Below, piece after piece: positions 6,845-21,982 of a DNA stretch of 42,318 bases. Numbering within the stretch: position 1 is the first letter of the stretch; each line of letters starts with the position of its first letter. Source of the DNA: Candidatus Sumerlaeota bacterium (lineage in GTDB: Bacteria; Sumerlaeota; Sumerlaeia; MWCT01); contig JAFGFK010000279.1 in the NCBI GenBank assembly GCA_016931135.1, forward strand, positions 1 to 42,318. The letters run 5' to 3'. Below the pieces are notes generated by a model. It was not told where the DNA came from. It searched no databases and saw only the letters and a program-made list of their open reading frames with translations. Both the position numbers and the translations under genes were made by a program.

Positions 6845-7977
6845 AGGCTTTTTTTCAGGCGATTGAATACGGCAAGATATTTTCTGGCGGTATTTTCCCA
6901 GGAAAAGAGTTTGACTCTCTCATATCCCCGCTTGATAAGATTCTTCCTTTTGTCTTCATCCGCGAGGAGATTGCTCAACGCTTGAACCATGGACCCCTCA
7001 TCGTTCGGATCAACCAGGACGGACGCCTCTCCGGCAACCTCCGGCATGGAGGATCTGTTCGATGTGATGACAGGCAATCCGCACGCCATGGCTTCCACTA
7101 TGGGGAACCCGAAACCTTCGTATAAGGAGGCGTAAAACAGGACGGCTGCATGTTTATAGAGGGAAACCAGATGTTCCGTGGTCGCCCATTTGATATGATG
7201 AATCCGTTCTCTCAAGTTGGAGTTATACGCCTCTTTTTTTATGGTATGTTCTATTTCGTTCCATCCCGCGCCTGTTTGACCAACCAGGACAAAGTCATAT
7301 TCATCCGCCTCCCGGCACCTTTTGAAGGCGCGGATCATCCGGGGAACGTTTTTACTCCGAATCATCTGCCCGACAAAGAGGATATATTTACTGGAGATGC
7401 CATGGATCCGCTTGAGGGAATCGAATGGAATGCCTTCTTCTTCGGATATGGATGGGTCCAGCCCGTTGTGCGCCACTATGATGCGATCAGCGGGGATGTC
7501 CAGGTATTTCATGATGTCTTTTCCCGAACTCTGCGAAACCGTGAAAATCAGGTTTGCGTTCTTTGCCGTTGTTTTCAGAAACATGCGGAAATAATGCCTT
7601 TCCAGGAAGGGAAATTCATAAGGTAATACAAAACGCTTCAGATCATGGATTGTAACGGTAGAAATACAGGGAAGGCGGAACGGGGCGATATCGCTGGGAG
7701 ACCAGAAGACATCCACATCATGTTTCCGGGAAAGGCGGGGAAGGATAAAGTGTTCATAAAAGATTCGTCGAAGTCTGAATTTCCTCGTGATATCACAGAC
7801 AACATTGGTGAAATTATCACTTTTTATGGAATAATATCCGGCATTGTCTTTTCGGAGAAAAAGGATATATTCATTTTCCCTGTCAATCTCCGAAAGGGCG
7901 CGCAGGAGGTTTTTGGTGAATCGCCCTGCGCCGGTAATCCTGCGGTGCAATGGAAATGTATTGACTCCGATCCGCAT
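6841..7977 (-). CDS. Glycosyltransferase family 4 (GT-B)
   Basis: TIHDL, TVSQSS, and SLYEGFGFPIVEAMACGLPVITSN (EX7E motif). Confidence 0.93.
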   Translation of the reverse strand: MRIGVNTFPLHRRITGAGRFTKNLLRALSEIDRENEYILFLRKDNAGYYSIKSDNFTNVVCDITRKFRLRRIFYEHFILPRLSRKHDVDVFWSPSDIAPFRLPCISTVTIHDLKRFVLPYEFPFLERHYFRMFLKTTAKNANLIFTVSQSSGKDIMKYLDIPADRIIVAHNGLDPSISEEEGIPFDSLKRIHGISSKYILFVGQMIRSKNVPRMIRAFKRCREADEYDFVLVGQTGAGWNEIEHTIKKEAYNSNLRERIHHIKWATTEHLVSLYKHAAVLFYASLYEGFGFPIVEAMACGLPVITSNRSSMPEVAGEASVLVDPNDEGSMVQALSNLLADEDKRKNLIKRGYERVKLFSWENTARKYLAVFNRLKKSL

Positions 7978-7985
7978 TTAATCGT

Positions 7986-8924
7986 TCATTCCAATGTCTT
8001 TCCCCTGTATAAGGGGTTTAATCTTCTCAAGATTTCCCGGTAAGCCTTTTTCCTCTGATTATTGTCAATTTGAAATGATTCTTTTCCAGGATATATCCTT
8101 ATCAATATCAATCGTAGAATCATATCGACGCATATAAACGAACGCAAGAGAAATCTCGTAACGGGACTTTTATGTTTTTGAAAGTACAAGTCCATGCTGA
8201 CGAAGAGTTGGATGATAGTGAAATACCTTGCCTTTTTGCTGCTTTGACGGTGGAGATGACACACGCGGGATGCCGGAACAAGGCGCCTTTTCCATCCGTT
8301 CTTTTTCAGCCTTAAACAAAGGTCCGCATCCTCGGAATAGAGGAAGAACCGTTCATCGAAAAGAGGCTCTCCCTCCAAGGCGGAGCGCCGCGCCAGGAAC
8401 GCCGCCCCAGTAGCCCAGTCAATCTCGCGCGGCGCTCTTGTCGATTTTTCATGTCGCTTCCGCCGCCTGATCCTTTCCAATCCCTTCGCAAGAAGGGAAT
8501 GCTCTATCCAGTAATTCCAGATTGAGGGGAATCGAAAAACGGAAGAGACTATAACGTCATTTTCATCGACTATTTGGGGAGCGGCAAGCCCCACATCGGG
8601 ATTCTTATCCAAAAAATCGGATAATGCCTCCAAGGTCCCCGGAAATATTCGCGTATCCGGGTTGAGAATAAAAAGATATTCCGCCCCGGTCATGGATAGG
8701 GCGAGATTATTGGCTTTTGCAAACCCGAGATTGCGCGATTGCGTAGAAAACCGGATTTCCGGAAACTCCTTTTTGATCATCTCTGAAGTCGAATCAGAAG
8801 AGGCGTTATCTATTACGATGATCTCCAGATCTACTTGAGGAAGGTTCTGGCGGAGGGAATAAAGGCATTCCCGTAAAACCTCCCGACAGTTCCAGCTCAC
8901 AATCTGAATGGCTACCTGTACCAT
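7986..8924 (-). CDS. Glycosyltransferase family 2 (WbbL/rhamnosyltransferase-like)
   Basis: IVSWN, IDNASSD, NLGFAKANN, LNPDT, FDERFFLYSEDADLC. Confidence 0.93.
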   Translation of the reverse strand: MVQVAIQIVSWNCREVLRECLYSLRQNLPQVDLEIIVIDNASSDSTSEMIKKEFPEIRFSTQSRNLGFAKANNLALSMTGAEYLFILNPDTRIFPGTLEALSDFLDKNPDVGLAAPQIVDENDVIVSSVFRFPSIWNYWIEHSLLAKGLERIRRRKRHEKSTRAPREIDWATGAAFLARRSALEGEPLFDERFFLYSEDADLCLRLKKNGWKRRLVPASRVCHLHRQSSKKARYFTIIQLFVSMDLYFQKHKSPVTRFLLRSFICVDMILRLILIRIYPGKESFQIDNNQRKKAYREILRRLNPLYRGKTLE

Positions 8925-9074: not shown

Positions 9075-9169
9075 CATATAGATAATTCGATAAACTAAAA
9101 ACATTAGAATCTTTCCAGAATCAAGAATCAGGATTGATCAGTATTTTATGTTTGAAAGGGGTTTGTTGG

Positions 9170-12100
9170 ATGAAATCAAAGACCATTTTAATGGTGTTTT
9201 TAATTTCACTGGTCGCCCTTTGCCATATTGACGCCCAAGGAGATATTTTATTCTCAGACACCTTTACCGGCACCGATGGGACCAGGCCGGCTAATTGGAA
9301 GATCGTCAATGCCCCTGAAACGAACTTCTGGTTCCTGCAGGATGGACAATTATGCACGGGAAACGGAGATGATATATTGACGGGAGGGGGCTTCTCTTAC
9401 GCCATTATCAGCGCTCCCGCCGCGCAGTCATGGACGGATTACAGTATCCAAACCTCCTCCTGGATGTATCAGGCGAATGGCAATATGATGATTATTGCCA
9501 GATGGCTGGATGAGAACAACCATTATCGGGGAGTTATGGAAACCTTGAAGGGCGCTCGTTCTCTCAAGATAGAGAAGGTTCTCAAGGGAAATAGAACCGT
9601 TCTTGCCGAAGTCAAGGACGGCGTTGACGGAGTCAATATTCCCCCGATGGAAAATGGAACGTCTCCCGCCGATGCCCGCACGTTTCAATTCATTGTTTCC
9701 GGGTCGAAACTGACCTTCATTATGGGGGGAGCGGTATCGGTTCAAGCGACGGACGCCAGCTTCCCGTCGGGATCGGCAGGCGTCGGCGAATGGTTTCATT
9801 ACGCCTATTTTGATGATGTTGTCGTTCAGAAAGTTCAGGAAGGAGAAATCCCCTCAAAACCGGTTTCCCAGATACCAACGGTGATTCAACCATTGGGCTC
9901 TCTTGGAACGTCCGCTTCCACTCCGGGAACCATTTTCCGGATATTGATAGGTGAGGAATTGCCGGAACAAACGGCAAAGGATCTCCGGGATCAGCTTATC
10001 AGTTGGGGATACACCCCTGTCGAGTTATTTCAGAAAGATACCGGATACGATGTATATCTGGGCGCGTTTCTGTCCGATGCGGAGGCTCAGTCTGCCAAGG
10101 GTTTCCTGGAAGAGGAAGGTTTGAGTCCGCGCCGGATCGTTTCTTTGAGCGGCGACAAGGCGGTGGAAGTCAAAAAACAGGCAACCACAGCCAAAAGAAA
10201 TTTCCGCGTTCTGGCGCGTGAGTTCACGGATATAAGTTTCGCTGAAAAAATGAAAAAAGCCCTGGAAGAAGACGGGTATTTCCCGGTGGAAATTGTCAGT
10301 ATGGGCGCTAATCACAGGGTGTATATTGGCAGTTTCAATAATAGCGATGAGGCGGATAAACTTTCCAGAGCCTTGAAAGCGGATGGATATGACACCGCCA
10401 CTGTTATCGAAACGGAATTGGATACAGACATGTCAACGATTTTTCCGCCTTCCACAATAGCGTCCGCCCCTTCTTCGCCCGAACCGTTCAATCCGGCGAT
10501 GATTGCCGGCAAGTCCTCTGAATGGGAAGCCCTTTCCGAAAAACAAAAAGGGGAAGTTATGGATATCATTACCCTTCAGGAATCCTTGAAGCATGGGGAC
10601 ATGGTCACCAACGAGATATTGGGTATCAAGAAAAAAATTGAAGAACTGACCATGGAGCAGAAAAGAATCGTTGATATCTGGCGCGGCGAGGCGGAAAAAG
10701 AACAATCCAAACAAAGAACAATCGCGGAATTGGTCAAGAAAGCGGAAAACGCAAGAGATCAGAGGCAATGGGATGAAGCGCTCAAGTTCTGCGAAGAAGT
10801 CAAGAAACTGGACCCTAATAACGGTCGCGTCGTCATGATCGAACGATCGATCAAGGTCATAACGGAAGAAGATTATGAAGGCAAGAAGATCATCGAGGAG
10901 CAGGAGCGGGAAAAGATCAAAAGGGCGCGCGATATGGCGGAATCTCTGGAAAAACAGCAGAAATTCGAAGCCTCCCGCGCCCAATGGGGAATGGTTTTGA
11001 GCCTCGCCAAACCTGGTTCCCTCGATTATAACGACGCCAATACCGCGATCGGAAGAATCGACGGACTCCTTGCCGAAGCGGAGACCCAAAGACACAAACG
11101 GGAACAAAGCAGGCTCTATACCCTCTATGGTATCGGAGCTATCATGCTCCTTCTTGTTTTCCTGATCGTCATGATTGTCATTCGAAGCAGAAAACATGAC
11201 CGCGAACTTCTGCGTCAGGTTCAGGAATTGACGCTGAAACCACTCCTTGAGCTTCAGGAGGGCAAGGGACCCGCTGCCATTGAGGATATGACCTCTGACG
11301 TTCAATCCGCTGCTGCGGCTGCAATGCAAACTCCCGCAAGTACGGGAAAGAAAAAACATAAAAAACCGATAGCGGCGCCTGCGCCGGTGGAGGTTCCGGA
11401 ACCGGTCTTTGCGGAAGAGCCCGAAGAGATTCCCGAACCCGAACCCATTCCCGCTCCCGATATATATCCCGTTCCTGAAGTGGAAACGGCTCAAACCGGT
11501 TTCGAGAGCGTGAAATCCGTGGAAAAAGAGGAATTACCCGTTCCCTCCATCGACGACCTCGCTTTTGAGGAATCCCTTGCGTTGTCAGGCGATAAACAGG
11601 AGTCGGTTCCTCTGGAACCTTCTTCGTTGGACGCCTTGGAAGGGGGAGAGTTTGAACCCGCCCCTGTTTTATCGGAACCTGTCAAAGGACCTTCCGTGGA
11701 TGTCGATGACCTCTTTGATGAGACAACCCTGGAAGATGAAACCCTGAAATTGTCGCCTCTTTCTAATCTGGAAGAAAAGACGCCGCTGCCCGGTTTCCAG
11801 GAGATTTCCCTGGAGCCCATCACCCCTTCTTCTTCAAAGGAAAAGAAACAAACCCCGCCCCTTTATTCCCATAAAGAAGACGATATTACCGAGGTTATCC
11901 TTCCTTCCCGGATGGTTCGGGAACCTCTCGATGTCGGGACGCCGAATATCAACTCCCTGGAAACGCCCAGACCTGTTGAAGTCTCGGAATCTGTCCCTTC
12001 CATATCAAAAGCCGACACGACTCCCGAGGCGTTCAAACCCTCCAGCGTCGATTCCAACGTCATTTACGAGCAGGATTTTGATCAGGAGCAAAACGGGTCT

Positions 12101-12631
12101 ATTCCCGCAAATTGGAAGGGTAATTATAATTACGCCTCCCTCGTTGTCAGTGATCAATCCCCGGCTCCGGATTCCAGAAAGTGCATTGTCTTTGAAAAGG
12201 AGAAGGGAGCGGGCAGCGCCTTCTATTGTTGCCATTTTGCCGAAACAAGCGGAGTTGTGGGAATCGAGTTCGATCTTCGATGCGATATGAAAAACAAATA
12301 TCTCCTGGGCTTCTATATCGAAAAGGATGAAGATTATCGCTATTCCATTCACACGGTTATCCAATATATCAACTCCGGGAAACAAAGCGCCAAACCCTCT
12401 CTGCGCGTTCAGGGAAAACCGGTGCCTTACAATTGGGGGGATTGGAGACACATCAAATATATCGTCAATCTGATTGACGCTACGGTGGATGGATACGTGG
12501 ATGGCGAATTGATCGCCAACGGTGAAAAACTGGCAAGTTGTCCTACCAGCTTGAATACGATTTCAATACGGGATAATTTAGCCACTGTCGGAAAGCTAAT
12601 GATTGACAATATCAAAATTTATAAGGCATAA
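9170..12631 (+). CDS. Large single-pass membrane protein: signal peptide, ConA/DUF1080-like domain, two SPOR-like domains, coiled coil/TPR, TM helix, Pro/Glu-rich linker, C-terminal ConA-like domain
   Basis: Signal peptide from ATG 9170 (MKSKTILMVFLISLVALCHIDAQG). SPOR-like YDVYLGAFLSDAEAQ and HRVYIGSFNNSDEAD. TM LYTLYGIGAIMLLLVFLIVMIVI followed by RSRK. Acidic low-complexity tract. Terminal KLMIDNIKIYK strand. Confidence 0.8.
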   Translation: MKSKTILMVFLISLVALCHIDAQGDILFSDTFTGTDGTRPANWKIVNAPETNFWFLQDGQLCTGNGDDILTGGGFSYAIISAPAAQSWTDYSIQTSSWMYQANGNMMIIARWLDENNHYRGVMETLKGARSLKIEKVLKGNRTVLAEVKDGVDGVNIPPMENGTSPADARTFQFIVSGSKLTFIMGGAVSVQATDASFPSGSAGVGEWFHYAYFDDVVVQKVQEGEIPSKPVSQIPTVIQPLGSLGTSASTPGTIFRILIGEELPEQTAKDLRDQLISWGYTPVELFQKDTGYDVYLGAFLSDAEAQSAKGFLEEEGLSPRRIVSLSGDKAVEVKKQATTAKRNFRVLAREFTDISFAEKMKKALEEDGYFPVEIVSMGANHRVYIGSFNNSDEADKLSRALKADGYDTATVIETELDTDMSTIFPPSTIASAPSSPEPFNPAMIAGKSSEWEALSEKQKGEVMDIITLQESLKHGDMVTNEILGIKKKIEELTMEQKRIVDIWRGEAEKEQSKQRTIAELVKKAENARDQRQWDEALKFCEEVKKLDPNNGRVVMIERSIKVITEEDYEGKKIIEEQEREKIKRARDMAESLEKQQKFEASRAQWGMVLSLAKPGSLDYNDANTAIGRIDGLLAEAETQRHKREQSRLYTLYGIGAIMLLLVFLIVMIVIRSRKHDRELLRQVQELTLKPLLELQEGKGPAAIEDMTSDVQSAAAAAMQTPASTGKKKHKKPIAAPAPVEVPEPVFAEEPEEIPEPEPIPAPDIYPVPEVETAQTGFESVKSVEKEELPVPSIDDLAFEESLALSGDKQESVPLEPSSLDALEGGEFEPAPVLSEPVKGPSVDVDDLFDETTLEDETLKLSPLSNLEEKTPLPGFQEISLEPITPSSSKEKKQTPPLYSHKEDDITEVILPSRMVREPLDVGTPNINSLETPRPVEVSESVPSISKADTTPEAFKPSSVDSNVIYEQDFDQEQNGSIPANWKGNYNYASLVVSDQSPAPDSRKCIVFEKEKGAGSAFYCCHFAETSGVVGIEFDLRCDMKNKYLLGFYIEKDEDYRYSIHTVIQYINSGKQSAKPSLRVQGKPVPYNWGDWRHIKYIVNLIDATVDGYVDGELIANGEKLASCPTSLNTISIRDNLATVGKLMIDNIKIYKA

Positions 12632-12709
12632 GCATGCGTCATTCTCGCTGATTTGGCTGAGCGTCATGTAATTATGTCTTTTTTTGTAACATTTTATGAG
12701 TGGTAGGGT

Positions 12710-15700
12710 ATGGGGAAGCTATCACAAAGCGGCATTATCGAGCAGATTAATGATAAGATCGACGCCAAAGTATTGTTCGATAAAATCAACTATGCCCCTG
12801 ATAAGGTTCAGATTATCGGGACGACATTGAAATGTTTCTGTCCCCTGCATAAGGAAAAGGCGTTTCGATCTCTCATCGTCGATCTTAAAAAGAACTCCTT
12901 TCGTTGCAGTCTCAAAGGGTGCCCCGGATTTGAGGGGGGAACCCTCGTTCATTTCTACTCCCTTCATACGGGACAACCTGAAATCAAATCCGCATTCAGC
13001 CTGGCGAAACTCCTGAACCTGGAGATAGACCCGGATATGATTCAGGGACTGTCTCAAAGTTTCAAGGAAGAAGCCCAACAAGCCTTTCTGGAAAGGGATA
13101 TCGAAAAAGCCCAGAATTTCGCCTCTCAAGCCCTGGATGTCGATCCCGGCAATCTTGGCGCCAGATTCCTGATGGCTCAAGCCTTGGAGGAACTCGGAAA
13201 TAATGTCGGAGCCATCAAGGAATTCCAAGCCACTGCGGATGGTTACTCGGACCTGGGTGAATTCAACAGAGCCATCGAAATTTATGAAATGTATATCCTT
13301 AAAAGAGAACCTCGGAATGAGGAAATACTTCAGAAAGTGGCGATCCTGTACGAAAACCTCGGAGATAAGGATCGCGCCATCGAATTCTATCTGATCATTG
13401 CCTCCGAGAACGATAAAAAGAGCCAGAATGACAAGAATATTCCCCTTTTTCATAAAATCCTGGAGATGAACCCCTCAAGGAATGAAGTTCGACTCCAACT
13501 GGCGCAACTCTATGAATCCATCGAAAATCTCCCGATGGCCGTTGACCAGTATCTGGACGTCGCATCCTGGCGCCGCAATCAGGGAGATCTTCCCTCCGCT
13601 CTGTCCATCCTCGAACATATCAAACAAACTGTTCCGGAAAATTTCAACTGCCGGGAACAAATTGCCGAAATCTATTACGAACAGGGCAATTATGAAAAGG
13701 TCGAACAGGAATATCTGCAACTGGGAGAAATCGCCATTGAACAGGATGAATTGCATACCGCAGAAAGATTTTACAAGATACTTCTCGAGAAATTTCCTCA
13801 ATCCCTTGAAGGGCGCCAGGGACTGATCAATCTGTTCGAGAAAATGGAAAACCGCACCGCTTTCAGCCGCGAAAGCATAGGGCTTGCCGATATTCTCGAA
13901 TCAATGGGCGATCTTGAACGCGCTACGACGGTTCTGGCGCGGGCAAAACGTCAAAGTCCCAGCGATGTTTATATCAGGGAAAAGCTCATCCAGTTGCTTA
14001 TCAAGGCGAATCTTCGCGATGAAACGGTGGAAGAGTATTTTGAACTCGCAGACCTTTATAATGAGGTGGGGGAGGATCAGACGGTCGCCTCATGCCTCGA
14101 TAAAATCAAAAGCCTTCATCCGAAAAACCTGAAAACGCTCATCAGGGCGGCGTCTCAGTTTTATAAATACGATGATAAACAAAAGGGGCTGGCGGAATTT
14201 TTACAGTTAGCCGATGATCTCCAGGATGATGAATCCTTTGATTCCAGTATCAGCGTTTGTGAAGAAGCCCTCAAATGGGAACCCGATAATATTTCCATTC
14301 TGGAGCGGTTGCTGTCGGCGCAGACACAGGTCGGCTTGAAGGATCAGGCTCTGGAAACGTATCAGAAACTTTATCAGATTTATCGTAATGCCGATAATAT
14401 CGGAAAAGCGGAAGAAGCGCTTCGGGACGCCCTCACGCTCGATGAAAAAAATGTCCGCATTCATTCCCAGCTGACGGATATATATCTTTATCAGAACAAC
14501 ACGGCAAACGCCCTTTCCACACTGACTTCCTTAAGTCAGATCTATTATGAAAATGAGGATATCGATGGGGGAATCGAAACCGCCAGAAAAATCCTGGAAC
14601 TCAATCCTGATTCCGTCGCTATCAGGGAACGCCTGGCTTATCTCTACAGGGAAAACAAGATTTTTGACCAATCCATCGAGGAATACAATCTCGCAGCGGA
14701 ATATTATATCAGCCAGAATCAGCATACCGCTGCCATTAACGATCTCAAAGCGGTCCTCGAGATCGATGAAAACAATTATGAATCTGTGCTGAAAATCTCG
14801 AACCTCCTTCTGGAATACGAGTCGTTCGAGGAGGCGCTCCCTTATCTGATGAAAGGATTGGAACTTCTCAAAAGCGGGTGGGGAAGCCCCGAGGACGTGG
14901 TCAAGGAATACCACAGAATCCTCGCTTTGAAAGAAAATCAACTTCAACTCCGCGAGGAATTCATCGCCTATCTGAAATCCATTGATTATAAGGATGAAGC
15001 CTTCAAGGAAATTCGATCCCTGGTGGATTTGTATAAAGAACAGAAGAATTTCCCCAAATCGGCAGGCCTTTTGGAAGAACTAATTCCTCTCAAACCTGAA
15101 GATAACTCCCTGAAGTCTGAATTGGCTGATATGTATATGTCTATGGATATCCATCAGGAAGCCCTGAATTATTACGCCCAGGCAGCCGCCGGGTACAGAG
15201 AACAGGGCGAGGAATCCAAAACCATTGAAATCTATCGCAAGATTCTCCAAATCGATCCCCAGGAAGAATCCATCCGGGAAGAACTCGCCCAGATTCTTGC
15301 CTCCCAGGCTTCTCAATCCGAGAAATCATCCAAACGCTCCAAAGGCGCAAACCTGAAAACCGAAGCCATTGAACATTTCCTCTTCCTGATCAACAAAAGA
15401 AGACAGGAAGAGCGGGAACATGAAAATACCCGATTTTATATGAAAATACTCGATTTGGACCCTGAAATGAAAGATATTCGGGAAAAACTCGCCGCAGCTT
15501 ATGAAATGGCTCAGGATCCCGAATCCGCTCTGGAACAGTTGATGATCCTGGCGGAATCTTATAAAAAGGAGGGCGATTTTAATACCGCCATTGAACGGTG
15601 CAAGCGCGCCAAAACCATCCTCCCGGGGAATGAAATGCCCAGGGGGCTCCTCTTGAATCTTTATGAAGCCTCGGGCGATACGGCGTCCCTGAAAAATGAA

Positions 15701-18700
15701 CATATCGCGCTCGGTGAAATATGGCTGAACAGGTTGATGCCGGACAAGGCGGAAAAACATTTCCTCGAAGCTCAAAAACTCGATCCTACCGATATTGGCG
15801 TAGGGGAGAAACTTGCCGAGATTCATGAAGCCAGGGAAGATTATGAGGCGGCTTGCTCACAATATCGAAAAGTCAGCTCTTTGTATGAAGAGAAAGGCGA
15901 ACTGACGAGCGCAATCGCCGCGCTTCGGAAAATCAAACTTCTCGATCCTTATAACTTCGAGTCCCGGGAAAAAATCGCGGATTTGCTTGCCAAAGTCCGG
16001 GAAATTCCCGAGTCGCTTGAGGAATATTATGAACTCGCCGTGCTTTCTTTTGAAATCCAGAAGCCTGATAAAGCCCGGCTTTTCATAGAAAAGATTTCCG
16101 AAATCGCTCCCGATCATTTTGAATTCCGTCTCAAAGTGATCCAGCTCCTTCATAATTACAACAAAGCGGATGAAGCCATCGAGGAACTTCTCAATCTGTG
16201 CGCCATCCTCCTCCAGGGAGGGCGCCTGGACAATCTTCTCAAAGCCGTTGATTTCGGATTGAAACTCGATGAAACGCTTCTGAATCTCAGGGAATTCAGG
16301 ATCAAAGCCCTCCTGGGCTCTAATAATATCAAGGACGCGCTCGATGAGTACCACATTGCTGCGCGCTTCGCCTTCCATCAGGAGAAATACGAAAACGCGG
16401 AAACATATTTGAACGCCATACTGGAAAGAAAACCCAAGGACCTGGAAGCCCTTCAGCAAAGCGTCGAGTGCGCCTTGAAACTCGATAAAATCGAATCTGC
16501 GGTTGATTTCCTGATGAAACTGATCCCCCTCTTCGAGAAAAACGAGGATTTTGAAAAAGCAATCGACGCCTCCAAACGTATCCTGGAGCTTACGCCGGAT
16601 AATGTGGAAGTCATGAAACAACTGGCGAAATTCTACCTCAACGCCTCTCGGGAATCCGAAGCGGTGCGCGCCTTTGGCGCCATCGCTGATTTCTACGTCT
16701 CTCATGGAAATTATACCGAAGCCTGCACGTATCTTTCCCGCATCCTCGAATACGATACGGATTCCATTCCCACGATCCGAAAACTGGCTTTCCTGATTTA
16801 TGAAAACGAGAATCTCTTCAAGGCGCGTCCTCATTTCAGGAAGTTCCTCGAACTCTGTAAGTCCCAATTGCCCCCGGAGGAAACGATAAAAGAATATCAC
16901 AATGTCCTCAAAGTCGATCCAGCCAATCCCCAACTGATCCTCGAATTCGCGCGATTCCTCCAGAGCATCGAGGAATTGGAGAAAGCCCGGGAACAGTATT
17001 TGAAGGCGTCATCGCTTCTCACGGAAGACGCCAGAACCCGTGGGAAAGCCATTCAAATCCTGAATGAATTGATGGAAGTCTTCCCCAATGACACGGACAT
17101 CCTTTCTCAACTGGCTGATCTCTGCGTAAAGGAAAACAAGCCGGAACAAGCCTTTATCCATTTCAACAGGATTGCCGGTATTTTTCTCGAGAGAAAAGAC
17201 TTGAAGGAATCCATCAATTTTTATCTCAAGGCCTTGCGAATCAAACCGGATGACGCTGACTTGATATTGAAAATCGGGGAACTGTATGAAGAGATGGGGG
17301 ACGCTACAAAGGCGGTTCAACAATACCTCAATCTTTCTGATCTGAATGTCAAACTGAACAAGACAAGCCAGAATATTGAGATTTATCAGAGAATCCTTTC
17401 TCTTGATGAATCCATGAAACCGGTTCGTCATAAACTTGCCCGGCTTTATGAAAAGGAAAAACGAATCGACAAAGCCACGATTCATTATCTGTATCTTGGA
17501 AGGCAGTATGAAGAGGAGAAAGAGCGGAATCAAGCCCTCGCCGTTTATCAGCATATCAAATCCATCAATCCTGAAGAGGAGGAAAATCGCAAATTCATGG
17601 TGGAGATTTATCTCGCCACCAAGAGAAAGGAACAGGCGAAGCTTGAGTTGGAGGAACTGGCTGATCTGTACATGAAAAACCAGCAACTGGCCGAAGCCCA
17701 GGTTCACCTCCTGAAAGTGAAGGATATTGCCCCCCAGGACATTGGAGTAGCGGAAAAACTCGCGCTATTGTTCGATCAACAGGGCGAGAAGGAGCTATCC
17801 GCAAACGAATATGCGCGGGCATCCGCCCTTTATTTGAAAAGCGACGATTTTGAAAAAGCCGTTCACGTTCTTTTAAAAGCCAAGGAATTGATTCCCGAAA
17901 ATACCGAATATCGCGAAGAACTCCTGAAATGCTATGAAAAATCCCGGAAGAACAGCGAATTCCTGAGCGAAGGCATGGCATTGGCGGGCCTTTATTTCTC
18001 GTTCCAGAAAAATAAAGAGGCAACCAGGATATGCAAAATCATTTCCGCCTTTCAACCTTCCAACGTGGAATTGCGACTTCAAGTCGCCAATCTGTACGAG
18101 GCGAACGGTTTGCGGGAGCAGGCGCTCGAGGAATATCTCAATCTGTGCCGGTTTCTTCTGGAATCCAAGAATTTTGCCAAAGCCGGGGAAGCGTGCGAAA
18201 CCGGACTTGCCCTTTCTCCGGATCATGTCCCTCTTCTCGAAGCTGAAATCGATGTTTTCCTGGGACTCGAGAATCTTCCCAAAGCCGTTGAATTGTTCCT
18301 GAAACTCGCCGGAATACATCATGCCAGCGAAAATCCAACCGCAGAGGAACAGTCCTATCGCAAAGCCCTTGAAATCCTTCCGGAACATATCCCGGCTCAT
18401 GATGGATTGATAAACCTCCTCACCGTGGCCGGAAGAATACAGGAAGCCGTCGATCAACTCCTTGTTCTGAGCGGCATTCATGAAAAACAAAATAACATTG
18501 AGGCAGCCATACAGAAACGCCAGGAAATTCTTATTCTGCAACCGGAAAATATCAATGTTCGGGATGGACTTGCCACACTGTACAAATCCCAGGGAAACAA
18601 CAACGCCGCTATCCAGGAATATTTCACCCTTGCCCAGATGTGCGAGGATGATGAGAATTTCAAGGGGGCTCGAAATTATTACGAGGCGATTCTGCAGATC

Positions 18701-21700
18701 GACAACAGAAAAGTGGACGCTATCAGGGCTATTATAAACCTTGCCCAGAAAAAGAAGGACGTCGAAGTCTTCATCCAGTATTCCCAGCGCCTCGCCGATT
18801 ATTTTGAAAGCGTTCAAGCCTTCGCCGACGCGATTCCTCTCTATCAGGGGATCATTGATTGGGACAAGAACTATCTGGCTGCGTATCAGAAGTTGGGATT
18901 CTGCCTGGAGGCCGTCGGGAAGATCGAGGAAGCCGTCCATATCTATAAAGAGCTTGGGGAACAGTATCAGAAACAGGACGCCCTGAACGCAGCCGTTCAA
19001 TATTTTCAACTTGTGGAAAAACATCGTCCCAATGATTGGAACAATTTGAAGAATATGGCGGATCTCTATGTCAAACTCAAGAATACCGATCAAGCCACTG
19101 TTTATTATACGCAAACCATAGATATTCTCAGGTCTTTGGACAATCTGGATGAGGCGTTGAAACTAGCCCAAACTCTTGTTAAAATAAAACCCAACCACGT
19201 TCCCTCTTATCAGATATTCGCGGAAATCCTGGAAACGAAGGGCGAAGACCCCAAGGCGAGTGAGGCGTACGCGTATATAGCCTCCCTTCTGGATAAGGAG
19301 AAAAAGATTCAGGAAGCCATGAACGCGAGGGCTTCCGCCCTTCGCCTCTCTCCCGATCTGGTGGAAGAAAGGGAAAAATATGCAGCTAATCTCGTCCAAC
19401 TGGGACAAAACGATGAGGCGATCTTTCAATATCTCCAGATTACCGATGAATATGTCAAACGTCAGAATCATGACAATGCCATAGCCTCTGCGCGAACAGT
19501 TTTCAAACTCGATGACGCCAATCCGGACGCTCACCTCAAACTGAAAAATATCTTTATGACCATCGGCAATACCCGGGACGCCCTCCAGGAAATGGGATGG
19601 ATCGCCAGGGATTATATACAAAAAGGACTTCTCCAGGATTCCGAGACGATTCTATTGGAAGCAGTCCAACTGAATCCAAACGACCTTTCCTTCAGGGAAG
19701 ACCTTGCTTTGGTTTATCAGAAAACCGACCAGCCCGCAAAAGCTACGGAACAACTCCTCAAGATTACCCAGCAGTCCCTTGTCGATGGAGATTTGAACAA
19801 GGCTATTTCCAGCCTGGAGAAAGCCAAGTCTCTGGCAAAAGATAATATCGAAATCCGAAAGAACCTGGCGGAACTTTATTATCGGAATAATCTTCCGGAA
19901 AAAGCCCGGGAGGAACTCTTCAGCGTCGCAAATATTTATCTGGAACAAGGCTTGATCGAAGAAGCCAATAAAATCTGCGATATGATGATCCAGGAGTCTC
20001 CCAAGGATTGCTCCCTCAGGGAACTGATTGGAGACCTTTTCAAGGAACAGGAAATCCCGGAGCTTGCCGTCAAACAATACCTGGAAATCTCTTTCCTGAA
20101 AAAGACGGAATCCGCCTATGAAGATGTCATCAAATATGCCGACATGTCCCTGGAATTGAATCCTAAATGTCTTGAAGCGCACGAAAACCGTATCGAGGCG
20201 CTTCTTAAAATCGACAGACGCTCCGAGGCGTACGATGCACTCCTGACCGTTTCCGAATTTTATTCGGACCTGGGGCTGTTTGAAAAGGCGAGAGACGCCT
20301 ACAGGATGATGGCGGAACTGGCCCCGGACGATCCGGTTCCCATCCAGAAACTCGCCCTGGTCTATTCCCTGATGAATAAAAAGGACGATCAGATTAACGC
20401 GCTTCGGGAGTTGGGCGATATCTTCCTGAGACTCGATCGGACAGAGGACGCCGTGAAAACCTTCCGCTCCATTATCGATCTCAGACCCGATGACACGAGA
20501 GCCAGGGTTCAATATATCGATCTGTATTCCCGTATCGGACCGGAACAGGAATTGGTCGATGATTATATCAAGCTGATCGATATTTTCATAAAACACAAAG
20601 CGACCGCTGAAGCCACGCGTATCTTCGAGAAACTGATTCGCATCACGCCCGAAGACGCCGAAATCCGGGAGAAGTTCATCCGCTTCCTCGTTCAGAATAA
20701 TGATAGAGCCAAAGCCTTCGGGGAAATGTCGTCCCTTTCCTCCATGTATATGGAAAGCGGGGAACTCAAAAAGGCCTCGAGACTTCTGGGGGAGGCGGTG
20801 AAAATCGCCCCTGAGGATCCTTCCGTTCATCTGCAACTCGCGGAAACCTATGTCATGATGAATGCCAAAGGAATGGCGGTGCAGGAGTTCAAGAAATCCG
20901 CCACTCTGTTCGAAAAAATCGACAATCCCGCGAAGTCCCTTGAAATATGTGAAAGAATCATCATGATCGATCCTTATAACCTCGAAGTCAGACAGACCTA
21001 TATCGAACGACTGAAGAAAACAGACCGTATAGAGGATATCGTGGTTCACTCCCAAAAACTGGCTGACTTGTATATCGAAAGAGGACTTCTGGACCTTGCC
21101 GAGAACGTCTATCGGGACATCCTTAAAATCCAACCGGATAATATTGAAATCTGGAATTTTCTGATTCAAACCCATCTCCAGATCGGGCTCGAAGAAGACC
21201 TTGTCGATGATTATCTTTCCCTGGGAGACCTGTATCTCTCCAAGGGCGCGTTAAAGGAGGCTCTGGTTCAGTATAAAAAGGTGATCGAAGCCGATCCCTT
21301 GAATGTCGAGGTTCGACGGAAATATATTGATACCTATCTGCAGATCGGACTGGAACATGACCTGATAGACGATTATCTGGAATTGGCGGACGCCCTCATG
21401 AATCGCCAGCAGATCGAAGACGCCATCCGACTTTATTCCCATGTCATGTCTTTAGATCCCGATAATAAACAGGCGCGGATGAAATTATCCGAAACCAGGG
21501 GGCAAACCGACAAGCCCGATAAAAAGGGCAAAAGAAAAAAGGCTGACAAGGAAGAAAGGGAACAGATATCCCTGGCGACTGACCTTCCTAAAAAACCGGT
21601 CGAACGCCCATCCCTTCCGGAAGTTTCTTATCAGTCAGCCATTGATAATTATAAAAATATTCTCTCCATGAATCCGGCAAATGCCAATATCCGCTGTAAA

Positions 21701-21982
21701 CTCGCTGAAATTTATTCGAAAACCGGGAAGATGGATGAAGCGGTCGATGAATGGGATAAAGCCAGTGAAACATTCATCCTCAAGGGAGAACTGGATAAGG
21801 GAATATCTCTTTGTGAAAAAATACTCGAAATCAAACCCAAACACGCCGTTTCCAGGGATCGTCTCTCCAAGGCTATCCTGCAGCGCGATTCCTTCAAGGC
21901 GATTGAAAGCGCCATCTCTTCCTACGCCGATTCTCAGGACAAAGCCCCCGGCGAAAATACAAGCACCGAAGGCGACGCTTGA
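12710..21982 (+). CDS. Giant (3090 aa) TPR-like solenoid protein with N-terminal CHC2 zinc finger of the DnaG zinc-binding-domain type
   Basis: Uninterrupted 9.27-kb ORF. N-terminus CFCPLHKEKAFRSLIVDLKKNSFRCSLKGC..GGTLVHF..AFSLAKLLNLEI, then continuous TPR-like repeats (ILxxDPxNxxxRxxLAxxY). No signal peptide or TM segment. Confidence 0.9.
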   Translation: MGKLSQSGIIEQINDKIDAKVLFDKINYAPDKVQIIGTTLKCFCPLHKEKAFRSLIVDLKKNSFRCSLKGCPGFEGGTLVHFYSLHTGQPEIKSAFSLAKLLNLEIDPDMIQGLSQSFKEEAQQAFLERDIEKAQNFASQALDVDPGNLGARFLMAQALEELGNNVGAIKEFQATADGYSDLGEFNRAIEIYEMYILKREPRNEEILQKVAILYENLGDKDRAIEFYLIIASENDKKSQNDKNIPLFHKILEMNPSRNEVRLQLAQLYESIENLPMAVDQYLDVASWRRNQGDLPSALSILEHIKQTVPENFNCREQIAEIYYEQGNYEKVEQEYLQLGEIAIEQDELHTAERFYKILLEKFPQSLEGRQGLINLFEKMENRTAFSRESIGLADILESMGDLERATTVLARAKRQSPSDVYIREKLIQLLIKANLRDETVEEYFELADLYNEVGEDQTVASCLDKIKSLHPKNLKTLIRAASQFYKYDDKQKGLAEFLQLADDLQDDESFDSSISVCEEALKWEPDNISILERLLSAQTQVGLKDQALETYQKLYQIYRNADNIGKAEEALRDALTLDEKNVRIHSQLTDIYLYQNNTANALSTLTSLSQIYYENEDIDGGIETARKILELNPDSVAIRERLAYLYRENKIFDQSIEEYNLAAEYYISQNQHTAAINDLKAVLEIDENNYESVLKISNLLLEYESFEEALPYLMKGLELLKSGWGSPEDVVKEYHRILALKENQLQLREEFIAYLKSIDYKDEAFKEIRSLVDLYKEQKNFPKSAGLLEELIPLKPEDNSLKSELADMYMSMDIHQEALNYYAQAAAGYREQGEESKTIEIYRKILQIDPQEESIREELAQILASQASQSEKSSKRSKGANLKTEAIEHFLFLINKRRQEEREHENTRFYMKILDLDPEMKDIREKLAAAYEMAQDPESALEQLMILAESYKKEGDFNTAIERCKRAKTILPGNEMPRGLLLNLYEASGDTASLKNEHIALGEIWLNRLMPDKAEKHFLEAQKLDPTDIGVGEKLAEIHEAREDYEAACSQYRKVSSLYEEKGELTSAIAALRKIKLLDPYNFESREKIADLLAKVREIPESLEEYYELAVLSFEIQKPDKARLFIEKISEIAPDHFEFRLKVIQLLHNYNKADEAIEELLNLCAILLQGGRLDNLLKAVDFGLKLDETLLNLREFRIKALLGSNNIKDALDEYHIAARFAFHQEKYENAETYLNAILERKPKDLEALQQSVECALKLDKIESAVDFLMKLIPLFEKNEDFEKAIDASKRILELTPDNVEVMKQLAKFYLNASRESEAVRAFGAIADFYVSHGNYTEACTYLSRILEYDTDSIPTIRKLAFLIYENENLFKARPHFRKFLELCKSQLPPEETIKEYHNVLKVDPANPQLILEFARFLQSIEELEKAREQYLKASSLLTEDARTRGKAIQILNELMEVFPNDTDILSQLADLCVKENKPEQAFIHFNRIAGIFLERKDLKESINFYLKALRIKPDDADLILKIGELYEEMGDATKAVQQYLNLSDLNVKLNKTSQNIEIYQRILSLDESMKPVRHKLARLYEKEKRIDKATIHYLYLGRQYEEEKERNQALAVYQHIKSINPEEEENRKFMVEIYLATKRKEQAKLELEELADLYMKNQQLAEAQVHLLKVKDIAPQDIGVAEKLALLFDQQGEKELSANEYARASALYLKSDDFEKAVHVLLKAKELIPENTEYREELLKCYEKSRKNSEFLSEGMALAGLYFSFQKNKEATRICKIISAFQPSNVELRLQVANLYEANGLREQALEEYLNLCRFLLESKNFAKAGEACETGLALSPDHVPLLEAEIDVFLGLENLPKAVELFLKLAGIHHASENPTAEEQSYRKALEILPEHIPAHDGLINLLTVAGRIQEAVDQLLVLSGIHEKQNNIEAAIQKRQEILILQPENINVRDGLATLYKSQGNNNAAIQEYFTLAQMCEDDENFKGARNYYEAILQIDNRKVDAIRAIINLAQKKKDVEVFIQYSQRLADYFESVQAFADAIPLYQGIIDWDKNYLAAYQKLGFCLEAVGKIEEAVHIYKELGEQYQKQDALNAAVQYFQLVEKHRPNDWNNLKNMADLYVKLKNTDQATVYYTQTIDILRSLDNLDEALKLAQTLVKIKPNHVPSYQIFAEILETKGEDPKASEAYAYIASLLDKEKKIQEAMNARASALRLSPDLVEEREKYAANLVQLGQNDEAIFQYLQITDEYVKRQNHDNAIASARTVFKLDDANPDAHLKLKNIFMTIGNTRDALQEMGWIARDYIQKGLLQDSETILLEAVQLNPNDLSFREDLALVYQKTDQPAKATEQLLKITQQSLVDGDLNKAISSLEKAKSLAKDNIEIRKNLAELYYRNNLPEKAREELFSVANIYLEQGLIEEANKICDMMIQESPKDCSLRELIGDLFKEQEIPELAVKQYLEISFLKKTESAYEDVIKYADMSLELNPKCLEAHENRIEALLKIDRRSEAYDALLTVSEFYSDLGLFEKARDAYRMMAELAPDDPVPIQKLALVYSLMNKKDDQINALRELGDIFLRLDRTEDAVKTFRSIIDLRPDDTRARVQYIDLYSRIGPEQELVDDYIKLIDIFIKHKATAEATRIFEKLIRITPEDAEIREKFIRFLVQNNDRAKAFGEMSSLSSMYMESGELKKASRLLGEAVKIAPEDPSVHLQLAETYVMMNAKGMAVQEFKKSATLFEKIDNPAKSLEICERIIMIDPYNLEVRQTYIERLKKTDRIEDIVVHSQKLADLYIERGLLDLAENVYRDILKIQPDNIEIWNFLIQTHLQIGLEEDLVDDYLSLGDLYLSKGALKEALVQYKKVIEADPLNVEVRRKYIDTYLQIGLEHDLIDDYLELADALMNRQQIEDAIRLYSHVMSLDPDNKQARMKLSETRGQTDKPDKKGKRKKADKEEREQISLATDLPKKPVERPSLPEVSYQSAIDNYKNILSMNPANANIRCKLAEIYSKTGKMDEAVDEWDKASETFILKGELDKGISLCEKILEIKPKHAVSRDRLSKAILQRDSFKAIESAISSYADSQDKAPGENTSTEGDA

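What the first reader, a model, noticed from the sequence alone, without database searches (positions are those of the whole stretch)
12710..13040. DnaG-type CHC2 zinc finger without a primase, fused to a 3000-aa solenoid
Seen: IIEQINDKID...CPLHKEK..RSLIVDLKKNSFRCSLKGC...GGTLVHF...AFSLAKLLNLEI follows the whole DnaG zinc-binding-domain pattern (CPFHxEKTPSF.V....FHCFGC..GG..i.F....A...LA...gi), with two extra residues between the last Cys pair. No TOPRIM, helicase or nuclease domain is visible anywhere in the protein. Known: this domain recognises ssDNA template in primase. Inference: it has been repurposed as a DNA or ssDNA sensor on a scaffold protein.
Basis: partly seen in the sequence, partly recalled or inferred. 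Interest (0 to 1): 0.8.

Follow-up and report, generated by a model that had tools for sequence, protein, structure and literature searches.

The report
Primase zinc finger on giant scaffold
A 3,090-residue repeat protein of the uncultured phylum Sumerlaeota begins with an enzyme-less copy of the DNA-primase zinc finger and is encoded next to a cell-wall-binding membrane protein, an undescribed pairing that may link the cell envelope to the replication machinery.

Summary
Residues 10-107 of the 3,090-aa ORF (12710-21982, +) are a divergent DnaG-type CHC2 zinc ribbon. Pfam PF01807 scores just under its cut-off, but profile-profile comparison, an AlphaFold model and two structure searches all point to primase zinc-binding domains. 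The last Cys pair is C-x4-C.

The rest is about 52 tandem 54-residue three-helix TPR-like units, with no room for a TOPRIM, helicase or nuclease domain. An intact dnaG and dnaA lie elsewhere in the genome.

The domain is a Sumerlaeota-specific family found in 72 of 75 genomes, with four paralogue classes:
- the giants;
- a ~1,360-aa form ending in a DnaA AAA+ module (one is in this genome);
- a ~500-aa form;
- a ~130-aa form.

The giant lies directly downstream of a bitopic SPOR membrane protein in at least 32 of 71 genomes.

The "ssDNA sensor" reading is not shown, and published work found that an isolated Bacillus primase zinc domain does not bind ssDNA. My best reading is an envelope-anchored mega-scaffold whose zinc ribbon is a shared docking module for a replication-related target. 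The ligand is unknown.

This scan flagged the same family earlier on other genomes. I found no paper describing it.

The parts
12710..21982 (+). Giant ORF: 3,090 aa, 355 kDa, pI 5.0, net charge -138. Zinc ribbon plus solenoid.
   Evidence: Collinear orthologues of 3,071, 3,072 and 3,051 aa at 52%, 26% and 25% identity. 19 representatives of 3,039-3,120 aa align in 3,290 columns.
12737..13030 (+). DnaG-type CHC2 zinc ribbon, residues 10-107. It is the most conserved block of the protein.
   Evidence: Pfam, hhalign, AF2, Foldseek, VIA-align. The conservation scan gives residues 41-80 the highest value, 0.66 against a mean of 0.46.
12839..12922 (+). Putative zinc ligands Cys44, His47, Cys66 and Cys71 (C-x2-H-x18-C-x4-C).
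   Evidence: Invariant in 30 of 30 aligned family members. They align with the CHC2 ligands of the genome's own DnaG. Zinc binding itself was not tested.
13148..21460 (+). Array of about 51 tandem 54-residue three-helix TPR-like units, residues 147-2917.
   Evidence: Autocorrelation peaks at lag 54 (+0.42 against mean -0.79, sd 0.20) with harmonics up to 378. A unit HMM gives 53 hits, with starts spaced exactly 54 apart in 45 of 52 intervals. The AF2 model of residues 1-450 shows helices of 13, 17 and 14 residues per unit, pLDDT 94.2. Pfam TPR families score up to E 1.7e-148.
21461..21676 (+). Variable lysine-rich linker, residues 2918-2989.
   Evidence: Lowest conservation and most gaps among the 19 giants. 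Composition: 17 K+R and 12 D+E.
21677..21979 (+). Last repeat unit and a conserved C-terminal tail motif (R-[DE]-R-L-S-[KR]-A-...-D-S-F-K-A-[IL]-E-S-A-I).
   Evidence: Unit hit at residue 2990. The tail motif is shared by most of the ~3,050-aa orthologues printed; it is degenerate in P0083 and absent from the shorter P0031 and P0049.
9134..12631 (+). Upstream partner gene: a bitopic SPOR membrane protein. The ORF from TTG is 1,165 aa; the public record starts 12 codons later, giving 1,153 aa. Layout: signal peptide, two SPOR domains, a TM helix near residue 660-720, an acidic and proline-rich tail, and a conserved C-terminal domain.
   Evidence: SPOR PF05036, E 7.9e-11. Sequence. TM segment and tail composition. 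A same-strand upstream ORF carries SPOR in 11 of 18 further genomes. Adjacency is seen in at least 32 of 71 genomes (searches compared).
12029..12628 (+). Conserved ~190-aa C-terminal domain of the SPOR protein, predicted to be cytoplasmic. No Pfam family.
   Evidence: 45-79% identical in 13 of 13 partner proteins from other genomes. 46 invariant columns. One copy each in 71 of 75 genomes of the phylum. No Pfam match.
12632..12709 (.). 78-nt spacer between the SPOR gene and the giant gene. Co-transcription is plausible.
   Evidence: No terminator-like site reported in it. A purine-rich stretch lies before the ATG.

Best explanation
The ORF encodes a 355-kDa cytoplasmic scaffold, not an enzyme.

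Anatomy:
- Its first ~110 residues are a phylum-specific subfamily of the primase (DnaG-type) CHC2 zinc ribbon.
- The rest is about 52 tandem 54-residue three-helix TPR-like units forming one long alpha-solenoid.
- It is the downstream, probably co-transcribed, partner of a bitopic membrane protein. That partner has periplasmic SPOR domains, which bind peptidoglycan, and a long acidic cytoplasmic tail ending in a highly conserved domain.

Proposed mechanism:
- The SPOR protein holds the solenoid at the envelope, at septal or polar wall.
- The zinc ribbon is a docking module shared by four paralogue classes, one of which carries a DnaA AAA+ ATPase.
- It addresses these proteins to a common target in the replication sphere. 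The most likely target is the primase RNA-polymerase domain with its template, because that is the only known working partner of this fold.
- The giant would then bridge the cell wall and the replication or chromosome machinery over tens of nanometres.

Shown: domain identity, repeat architecture, length conservation, phylum-wide distribution, paralogue classes and the gene pairing.

Inferred: zinc binding, topology of the partner, physical contact between the two proteins, the ligand of the zinc ribbon, and any role in replication or segregation.
For: Domain identity.

The zinc ribbon is the most conserved block of the giant.

Distribution:
- 295 representatives among 1.84 billion proteins at E<=1e-3.
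- 72 of 75 genomes of the phylum, and 41 of 43 high-quality ones, with 1-5 copies each.
- All 12 named loci out of 14 are Sumerlaeota/BRC1.

Purifying selection on the whole length: orthologues at 19-49% identity keep nearly the same length and align with almost no gaps.

Paralogue link to replication:
- 38 of the 152 stored proteins (the 150 listed hits plus P0001 and P0002) end in a DnaA domain-III module.
- The copy in this genome (contig C401, 1,362 aa) scores PF00308 at E 1.6e-64 and TIGR00362 at 301 bits, without domain IV.
- The Walker A G-x-GKTH motif is invariant in all 38.

Tree: the N-terminal domains of the giants form one clade (38 of 39, support 98/85). The short and ~500-aa classes are clades too.

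Gene pairing:
- SPOR protein directly upstream in the window, in L018 and L019, and in 11 of 18 further genomes.
- At least 32 of 71 genomes by comparing the places, spanning 11 taxonomic families.
- All 14 partner proteins share TM, acidic tail and conserved C-terminal domain.
- That domain is single-copy in 71 of 75 genomes.

Primase zinc domains work with the RNA-polymerase domain, not alone (PMC5429622, passages).

The ribbon core keeps a basic charge like DnaG's.
Against: - No experiment exists on any member of the family.
- In 7 of 18 genomes tested the upstream gene is not the SPOR protein. In families f9, f10, f12 and f16 the two genes lie on different contigs or far apart.
- No replication, segregation or division gene is a conserved neighbour of any class.
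- The genome already has a complete DnaG with its own zinc domain, so it is not clear why primase would need another.
- The solenoid is strongly acidic (net charge -138). The whole zinc domain is on average slightly acidic across the family. Both argue against a surface that hugs DNA.
- The zinc ribbon's variant features (C-x4-C, F-R-[ST]-L) are conserved in all classes and differ from DnaG. The ligand may therefore differ from DnaG's.
Confidence: 0.4

Rival explanations
1. First reader's reading. The zinc ribbon is an autonomous DNA or ssDNA sensor that reports or tethers nucleic acid to the scaffold directly, without primase.
For: - Homology and fold identity with the template-recognising domain of primases.
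- The ribbon core is basic: mean +4.0 over 141 sequences, against +5 for the genome's own DnaG.
- The DnaA-ATPase paralogue has lost DnaA's DNA-binding domain IV, so the zinc ribbon could replace it.
Against: - The isolated B. subtilis DnaG zinc domain showed no ssDNA binding in gel shifts (PMC5429622, passages).
- The whole domain has mean net charge -1.1, and only 22% of 143 domains have pI above 8.
- The attached solenoid is very acidic.
Confidence: 0.2
2. The zinc ribbon is a purely protein-level module with no link to DNA or replication. It could cap the solenoid, bind the SPOR partner, or let the four CHC2 paralogue classes assemble with each other. The giant would then be an envelope-associated cytoskeletal or polarity scaffold, working like FimV/HubP-type landmarks or SgmX.
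For: - The conserved pairing is with a wall-binding membrane protein, not with a DNA protein.
- The partner's layout (periplasmic wall-binding domain, TM, acidic cytoplasmic region, conserved C-terminal domain) resembles the FimV/HubP layout described in the abstract of PMC12918733 (listing).
- NCBIfam shows weak TPR-level similarity to the pilus scaffold SgmX.
- The variant ligand spacing and motif are conserved in all classes and differ from DnaG.
Against: - One paralogue class joins the same zinc ribbon to a nearly unaltered DnaA ATPase core. This ties the family to replication.
- Every structural neighbour of the domain with Z of 7 or more is a primase or primase-helicase.
Confidence: 0.3
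3. The protein is part of an anti-phage defence or other mobile system, with the TPR array as a sensor and the zinc ribbon as a nucleic-acid-recognising head.
For: Long TPR sensor arrays and AAA+/STAND-like modules occur in defence systems (general knowledge, recalled). A weak GapS6b hit appears in one ~500-aa relative (E 7e-4).
Against: - No PADLOC model matches the giant, the paralogue, the zinc domain or the SPOR partner: 0 of 4 proteins.
- The family is near-universal and vertically inherited in the phylum: 72 of 75 genomes, with class-wise clades.
- The neighbours are housekeeping genes.
Confidence: 0.03
4. Artefact: a chimeric assembly joining a primase fragment to a repeat gene, or a decaying pseudogene.
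For: None found. The window comes from a fragmented metagenome assembly of 523 contigs.
Against: - The same architecture and length occur in independent assemblies.
- An independent contig spans the junction with 0 differences at even depth.
- There are no internal stops over 9.3 kb.
Confidence: 0.01

Closest known systems
Zinc-binding domain of bacterial DnaG primase (Pfam PF01807 Zn_ribbon_DnaG / zf-CHC2; PDB 1d0q, 2au3)
   Same: - Same fold: VIA-align Z 9.3-10.2; Foldseek probability 1.00.
- Same CHC2 ligand set and the C-P-x-H-x-E and G-G motifs.
- N-terminal position, with the same helical flanks.
   Different: - The last Cys pair is C-x4-C instead of C-x2-C, with two more residues before the G-G.
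- F-R-[ST]-L replaces T-P-S-F.
- The Pfam score is below the gathering cut-off.
- It is followed by a solenoid instead of the DNAG_N/TOPRIM polymerase and helicase-binding domains.
- It forms a separate family restricted to one phylum.
TPR superhelix proteins (for example the O-GlcNAc transferase TPR domain, PDB 1w3b; designed consensus TPR arrays)
   Same: Antiparallel helical repeats with TPR sequence signatures. Pfam TPR families score far above their cut-offs. Foldseek E is 1e-11 to 1w3b.
   Different: - The period is 54 residues with three helices per unit, not 34 with two. It reads as two TPR motifs sharing the middle helix (my inference from the unit consensus).
- Global TM-scores to known TPR superhelices are only 0.14-0.2, so the supercoil differs.
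- About 52 units sit in one chain, with the length conserved across a phylum.
FimV/HubP-type polar landmark proteins (compared with the upstream SPOR partner plus the giant taken together)
   Same: Periplasmic peptidoglycan-binding domain, one TM helix, a long acidic cytoplasmic region, then a conserved C-terminal module and TPR elements (FimV/HubP layout from the abstract of PMC12918733, listing).
   Different: - The wall-binding domain is SPOR, not LysM.
- The C-terminal domain has no Pfam family and is not a FimV TPR domain.
- The TPR mass sits in a separate 3,090-aa protein carrying a primase zinc ribbon.
- No sequence homology to FimV or HubP was seen.
DnaA domain III and its stand-alone relative Hda (for the paralogue that shares this zinc ribbon)
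   Same: The sister class ends in a DnaA-type AAA+ module with Walker A/B and the downstream conserved motifs. TIGR00362 scores 301 bits and the Hda model 82.8 bits.
   Different: The window's protein has no ATPase at all. The paralogue lacks DnaA domains I, II and IV, and carries the zinc ribbon and about 20 repeat units instead.

Membership tests
Zn_ribbon_DnaG / zf-CHC2 (PF01807) | Cys-His-Cys-Cys zinc ligand set in the conserved positions | tested here: met
   C44, H47, C66 and C71 are invariant in 30 of 30 sequences. They align to the ligands of the genome's own DnaG.
Zn_ribbon_DnaG / zf-CHC2 (PF01807) | Canonical C-x2-C spacing of the second ligand pair | tested here: not met
   The spacing is C-x4-C in all 30 aligned members. 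The hhalign alignment shows a two-residue gap on the DnaG side.
Zn_ribbon_DnaG / zf-CHC2 (PF01807) | Score at or above Pfam's gathering threshold of 24.9 bits | tested here: not met
   21.9 bits, E 1.6e-4 for this protein. The paralogue on C401 passes with 27.3 and 30.7 bits. 10 of 20 relatives give sub-threshold matches.
Zn_ribbon_DnaG / zf-CHC2 (PF01807) | Primase zinc-ribbon fold | tested here: met
   AF2 pLDDT 91.9. Foldseek top hits are 2au3 and 1d0q, with the next hit at E>1. VIA-align gives Z 10.2, 9.3, 7.1 and 7.0, all to primases, then 3.9.
Zn_ribbon_DnaG / zf-CHC2 (PF01807) | Binds one zinc ion | not testable with these tools
   Needs metal analysis of the purified domain.
DnaG primase (TIGR01391) | DNAG_N plus TOPRIM RNA-polymerase core after the zinc domain | tested here: not met
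   Repeat units fill residues 147-2917. PF08275 and PF13662 hit only other contigs of the genome. TIGR01391 scores 22.4 bits against a cut-off of 283.6.
TPR repeat proteins | Significant match to TPR profile families | tested here: met
   TPR_19 E 1.7e-148, TPR_14 E 2.8e-113 and many others. All 25 families shown, of 35 matched, are helical-repeat families.
TPR repeat proteins | 34-residue, two-helix repeat period | tested here: not met
   The period is 54 with three helices per unit. Lags 20 and 34 give only minor peaks.
FimV/HubP polar landmark (for the gene pair) | Periplasmic LysM domain and C-terminal FimV TPR domain in one protein | tested here: not met
   The partner carries SPOR, not LysM. 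Its C-terminal domain matches no Pfam family. The TM helix and acidic tail are present.
Known anti-phage defence systems (PADLOC-DB) | Match to a defence-system protein model | tested here: not met
   0 families for 4 proteins.

The most novel reading that the evidence does not exclude
Sumerlaeota have a lineage-specific machine that ties chromosome replication to the cell wall.
- A SPOR protein marks septal or polar peptidoglycan.
- Its conserved cytoplasmic domain holds a 355-kDa solenoid of fixed length, which acts as a molecular ruler or tether.
- The solenoid's primase-type zinc ribbon plugs into the primase or replisome.
- The same zinc ribbon delivers a DnaA-ATPase paralogue (and two smaller paralogues) to the same site. 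That paralogue could switch DnaA off or on where and when primers are made. This would be a replication-coupled control analogous to Hda with the clamp, but built from different parts.
Probability: 0.15. Interest if true: 0.85.

Novelty: new variant of a known kind. Interest (0 to 1): 0.62.

Why it matters
- It shows that the primase zinc-binding domain, so far known as part of primases and primase-helicases, has been detached and reused as the common head of a whole protein family. That family includes a DnaA-ATPase fusion and one of the largest repeat proteins of these genomes.
- The giant keeps its length (about 52 units of an unusual 54-residue three-helix repeat) across a phylum. This suggests that length itself is functional.
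- Its conserved pairing with a wall-binding SPOR protein offers a concrete, testable hypothesis for how an uncultured phylum connects envelope, division site and replication.
- Even if the DNA link fails, the 54-residue repeat solenoid and the new conserved cytoplasmic domain of the SPOR partner are undescribed building blocks.

Tried and rejected
- **Complex prediction.** Giant residues 1-450 were folded with the SPOR partner's C-terminal domain (result). The verdict was 'no answer' (score 0.00), which is neither for nor against binding. A first planned job, zinc ribbon with the DnaG RNA-polymerase domain, was never accepted because the queue was full. I replaced it, so that pair remains untested.
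- **Expression.** No RNA holder is listed for the stretch, and the two metatranscriptome runs of the same study held none of it. This says nothing about expression.
- **Helicase-loader idea.** I considered that the DnaA-ATPase paralogue replaces a missing helicase loader. DciA (PF05258) is over its cut-off in only 1 of 75 genomes. However, this genome has a DnaC/DnaI-like ATPase next to purH on contig C204, so the idea is dropped.
- **Gene neighbourhoods of the other classes.**
  - nadC is upstream of the DnaA fusion in 5 of 5 other loci, which carries no functional hint.
  - Neighbours of the ~500-aa class (ClpB, Der) are shared only within one family. Neighbours of the short class are not shared.
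  - Distant giant loci L021 and L024 have unrelated neighbours.
- **Defence.** No PADLOC match.
- **PDB by sequence.** Only weak hits (2au3 E 0.33).
- **ESM Atlas.** 19 of 30 nearest clusters carry PF01807. This is a lead only.
- **Word-index protein search** with the N-terminus found only 2 relatives. The full HMMER scan was needed.
- **Literature searches with no relevant paper:**
  - CHC2 + tetratricopeptide + zinc finger: 0 papers.
  - Sumerlaeota + tetratricopeptide: 2 unrelated papers.
  - DnaA + AAA+ + tetratricopeptide + zinc ribbon: 0 papers.
  - The Sumerlaeota genomics paper PMC8092238 has no occurrence of TPR, DnaA, primase or zinc in its main text. Its supplements were not looked at.
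- Alignment A2 was too diverse for the search for related loci, so A1 was used. A reference with stop codons was corrected. An over-long protein sent to the Atlas was resent as a part.
Full report
**What is there.** The window (contig C384 of a 4.66-Mb, 523-contig, 88.8%-complete assembly) holds one open frame from 12710 to 21982 on the + strand, 3,090 aa. It has no internal stop. The protein is 355 kDa, pI 5.0.

**The zinc ribbon is real.** Pfam matches residues 10-107 to PF01807 (Zn_ribbon_DnaG) over positions 6-94 of the 98-position profile. The E-value is 1.6e-4 and the score 21.9 bits, just under the 24.9-bit gathering score. NCBIfam's dnaG model matches the same stretch weakly. Plain sequence comparison with PDB is not significant (2au3 E 0.33). 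The assignment therefore rests on stronger tests:
- A 30-sequence alignment of the family's N-termini against the genome's own DnaG N-terminus gives hhalign probability 94.1%, E 1.2e-7 over 80 columns.
- AlphaFold2 on that alignment gives pLDDT 91.9.
- Foldseek against PDB returns only the Aquifex primase (2au3, E 1.7e-4) and the Bacillus stearothermophilus primase zinc domain (1d0q, E 1e-3, TMt 0.66) before dropping to E 1.3.
- An independent aligner run over 48,161 chains ranks 2au3 (Z 10.2), 1d0q (Z 9.3, rmsd 3.2 over 101 residues), Twinkle (Z 7.1) and T4 primase (Z 7.0) first. The next chain scores 3.9.

C44, P45, H47, C66 and C71 are invariant in 30 of 30 sequences.

**No enzyme is attached.** Autocorrelation of the sequence peaks at lag 54, with harmonics up to 378. 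An HMM of the unit finds 53 hits whose starts, from residue 147 to 2864, are spaced exactly 54 apart in 45 of 52 intervals. One more unit lies at 2990, after a lysine-rich variable linker. The AlphaFold2 model of residues 1-450 (pLDDT 94.2) shows three helices of about 13, 17 and 14 residues per unit. The unit consensus reads like two TPR motifs sharing the middle helix; this is my inference.

Pfam TPR families match massively, and Foldseek finds TPR superhelices such as OGT (E 1e-11). Global TM-scores are only 0.14-0.2, so the supercoil is not the classical one. Nothing but repeats fits between the zinc ribbon and the C-terminus. Genome-wide scans for DNAG_N and Toprim_4 hit other contigs only. 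A complete dnaG (596 aa, all primase domains) is on C369 and a canonical dnaA is on C485.

**It is a conserved family, not an accident.** A profile of the domain run over 1.84 billion representative proteins finds 295 at E<=1e-3 and 201 at E<=1e-10. Among the 152 proteins then held:
- 40 (the window's own included) are 2,393-3,634 aa without any ATPase, clustered near 2,600, 2,950 and 3,039-3,120 aa.
- 38 end in a DnaA AAA+ module, mostly at 1,353-1,395 aa.
- Most of the rest are fragments or short forms.

Nineteen giants of 3,039-3,120 aa, 19-49% identical to the window's protein, align in 3,290 columns with almost no gaps. The most conserved 40-residue block is the zinc ribbon. Three orthologous loci from named assemblies are collinear over 3,088-3,100 aligned residues at 52%, 26% and 25% identity.

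All 12 named loci of 14 found in 185,579 species genomes are Sumerlaeota/BRC1. Within the phylum 72 of 75 genomes (41 of 43 high-quality ones) carry the domain, with 1-5 copies each. This, together with a Logan contig spanning 12533-13900 without differences (probably the source sample), rules out a chimeric assembly.

**Paralogue classes.**
- *DnaA fusion.* This genome has a second member on contig C401: zinc ribbon (over the Pfam cut-off), about 20 repeat units, and a C-terminal DnaA domain III. PF00308 scores E 1.6e-64 and TIGR00362 301 bits, covering model positions 83-340 of 437. Domain IV is absent. Its ATPase motifs are conserved in 38 of 38 such proteins, and it is close to the genome's own DnaA.
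- *Two further classes* occur in other families of the phylum: a ~500-aa form with a conserved C-terminal helical region, and a ~130-aa stand-alone form.
- *Tree.* On a tree of the N-terminal domains the giants form one clade (38 of 39, support 98/85). The short class (97/90) and the ~500-aa class (92/100) are clades as well. With 118 columns, deep branches are weak.
- *Repeat period.* The 54-residue period, or its multiples, is the top autocorrelation peak in 10 of 10 giants and 6 of 6 DnaA fusions tested.

**The partner gene.** The gene directly upstream (9134-12631, same strand, 78-nt spacer without a terminator-like site) encodes a protein with these parts, in order:
- a signal peptide;
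- two SPOR domains;
- a coiled-coil/TPR stretch;
- one internal TM helix followed by basic residues;
- a ~490-aa acidic, proline-rich tail;
- a ~190-aa C-terminal domain without a Pfam family.

I first saw this gene only in close relatives (L018 and L019), and not in two distant loci.
- Of 18 further genomes in which the giant's start was found (2 more failed), 11 have a SPOR protein as the same-strand upstream ORF and 7 do not.
- All 14 partner proteins share the TM helix, the tail and the C-terminal domain, which is 45-79% identical to the window's.
- That domain is present once in each of 71 of 75 genomes. It occurs in 107 database proteins, whose named members are Sumerlaeota apart from one partial record labelled Poribacteria.
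- Comparing the places listed by eye, the SPOR gene ends within about 370 bp upstream of a zinc-ribbon gene, on the same contig and strand, in at least 32 of 71 genomes from 11 taxonomic families. 45 rows were not listed, so the true number may be higher. In families f9, f10, f12 and f16 the two genes are apart.

**How it most likely works.** SPOR domains bind amidase-processed septal peptidoglycan. This is established knowledge, and is stated in the abstract of PMC7822825 seen in the listing. The partner's predicted topology puts its acidic tail and conserved domain in the cytoplasm. The whole layout recalls the FimV/HubP polar landmarks (abstract of PMC12918733).

I therefore read the giant as an envelope-anchored solenoid whose conserved tip, the zinc ribbon, is an address module shared with the DnaA-ATPase paralogue and two smaller classes. 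The only known working partner of this fold is the primase RNA-polymerase domain with its template. Passages of PMC5429622 report that the isolated B. subtilis zinc domain did not bind ssDNA at all, and that the zinc domain plus polymerase domain were needed. It makes docking to primase or the replisome the more economical guess, but it is only a guess.

Several observations count against any DNA-centred model:
- The solenoid is very acidic.
- The zinc domain as a whole is not basic, although its ribbon core is.
- No replication gene is a conserved neighbour.
- The family's variant motifs differ from DnaG in all classes.

A purely protein-level role (capping, partner binding, or assembly among paralogues) is a serious rival.

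**Novelty.** I found no paper on this architecture in four searches and in the main text of the Sumerlaeota genomics paper (supplements not seen). The scan itself flagged the family before on other genomes. My results agree with those notes and add:
- the 54-residue period;
- the class structure;
- the counts for the SPOR pairing;
- the conserved C-terminal domain of the partner.

The domain is a new variant of a known fold. The protein family and the gene pair are undescribed, and function remains inferred.

Noticed in passing
own genome contig C401:8653-12741 (- strand); loci L002, L007: A 1,362-aa paralogue: the same variant zinc ribbon, about 20 units of the 54-residue repeat, and a C-terminal DnaA domain-III ATPase without domain IV. 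A nadC-like gene lies directly upstream here and in 5 of 5 other loci checked.
   Followed up: partly
loci L040-L044 (about 500 aa) and L045-L052 (about 130-220 aa): Two further conserved classes carry the same zinc ribbon. The ~500-aa form has a few repeats and a conserved C-terminal helical region (motif ...EFY-x-AFC...). The other is a stand-alone ~130-aa form. Their neighbourhoods are not conserved beyond one taxonomic family.
   Followed up: partly
proteins P0094, P0106, P0122, P0124, P0132: Short zinc-ribbon proteins (208-272 aa) with low-complexity acidic or proline-rich linkers. They all end in a similar C-terminal peptide, [KR]-[KR]-x-[IT]-[SA]-[YF]-[LIV], which looks like a docking or membrane-targeting tail.
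   Followed up: no
whole phylum; own contig C204 (locus L035:29-763, - strand): DciA (PF05258) passes its cut-off in only 1 of 75 Sumerlaeota genomes. This genome instead has a 244-aa DnaC/DnaI-like ATPase with an N-terminal Cys-rich motif. It follows a 243-aa unannotated ORF and purH.
   Followed up: partly
window 12029-12628: The C-terminal ~190-aa domain of the SPOR protein has no Pfam family. It is the best-conserved part of that protein (46 invariant columns in 14 sequences) and is single-copy in 71 of 75 genomes. A similar beta-rich region seems to occur near the protein's N-terminus; relatives show weak 3keto-disac_hyd hits there.
   Followed up: partly
window 2506-4950 (-), 1723-2460 (-), 40545-41537 (-): Three sizeable ORFs (814, 245 and 330 aa) have no Pfam match at E<=1e-3.
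   Followed up: no
window 5720-8924 (-) and 23647-26034 (+): An envelope or polysaccharide gene set surrounds the pair: a radical-SAM/SPASM protein, GT4 and GT2 glycosyltransferases upstream, and a 795-aa Wzy_C (O-antigen-ligase-like) protein downstream.
   Followed up: no
protein P0097 (3,212 aa): This is the one giant-sized protein whose zinc ribbon groups with the DnaA-fusion side of the tree rather than with the other 38 giants. Its 54-residue periodicity is weak.
   Followed up: no
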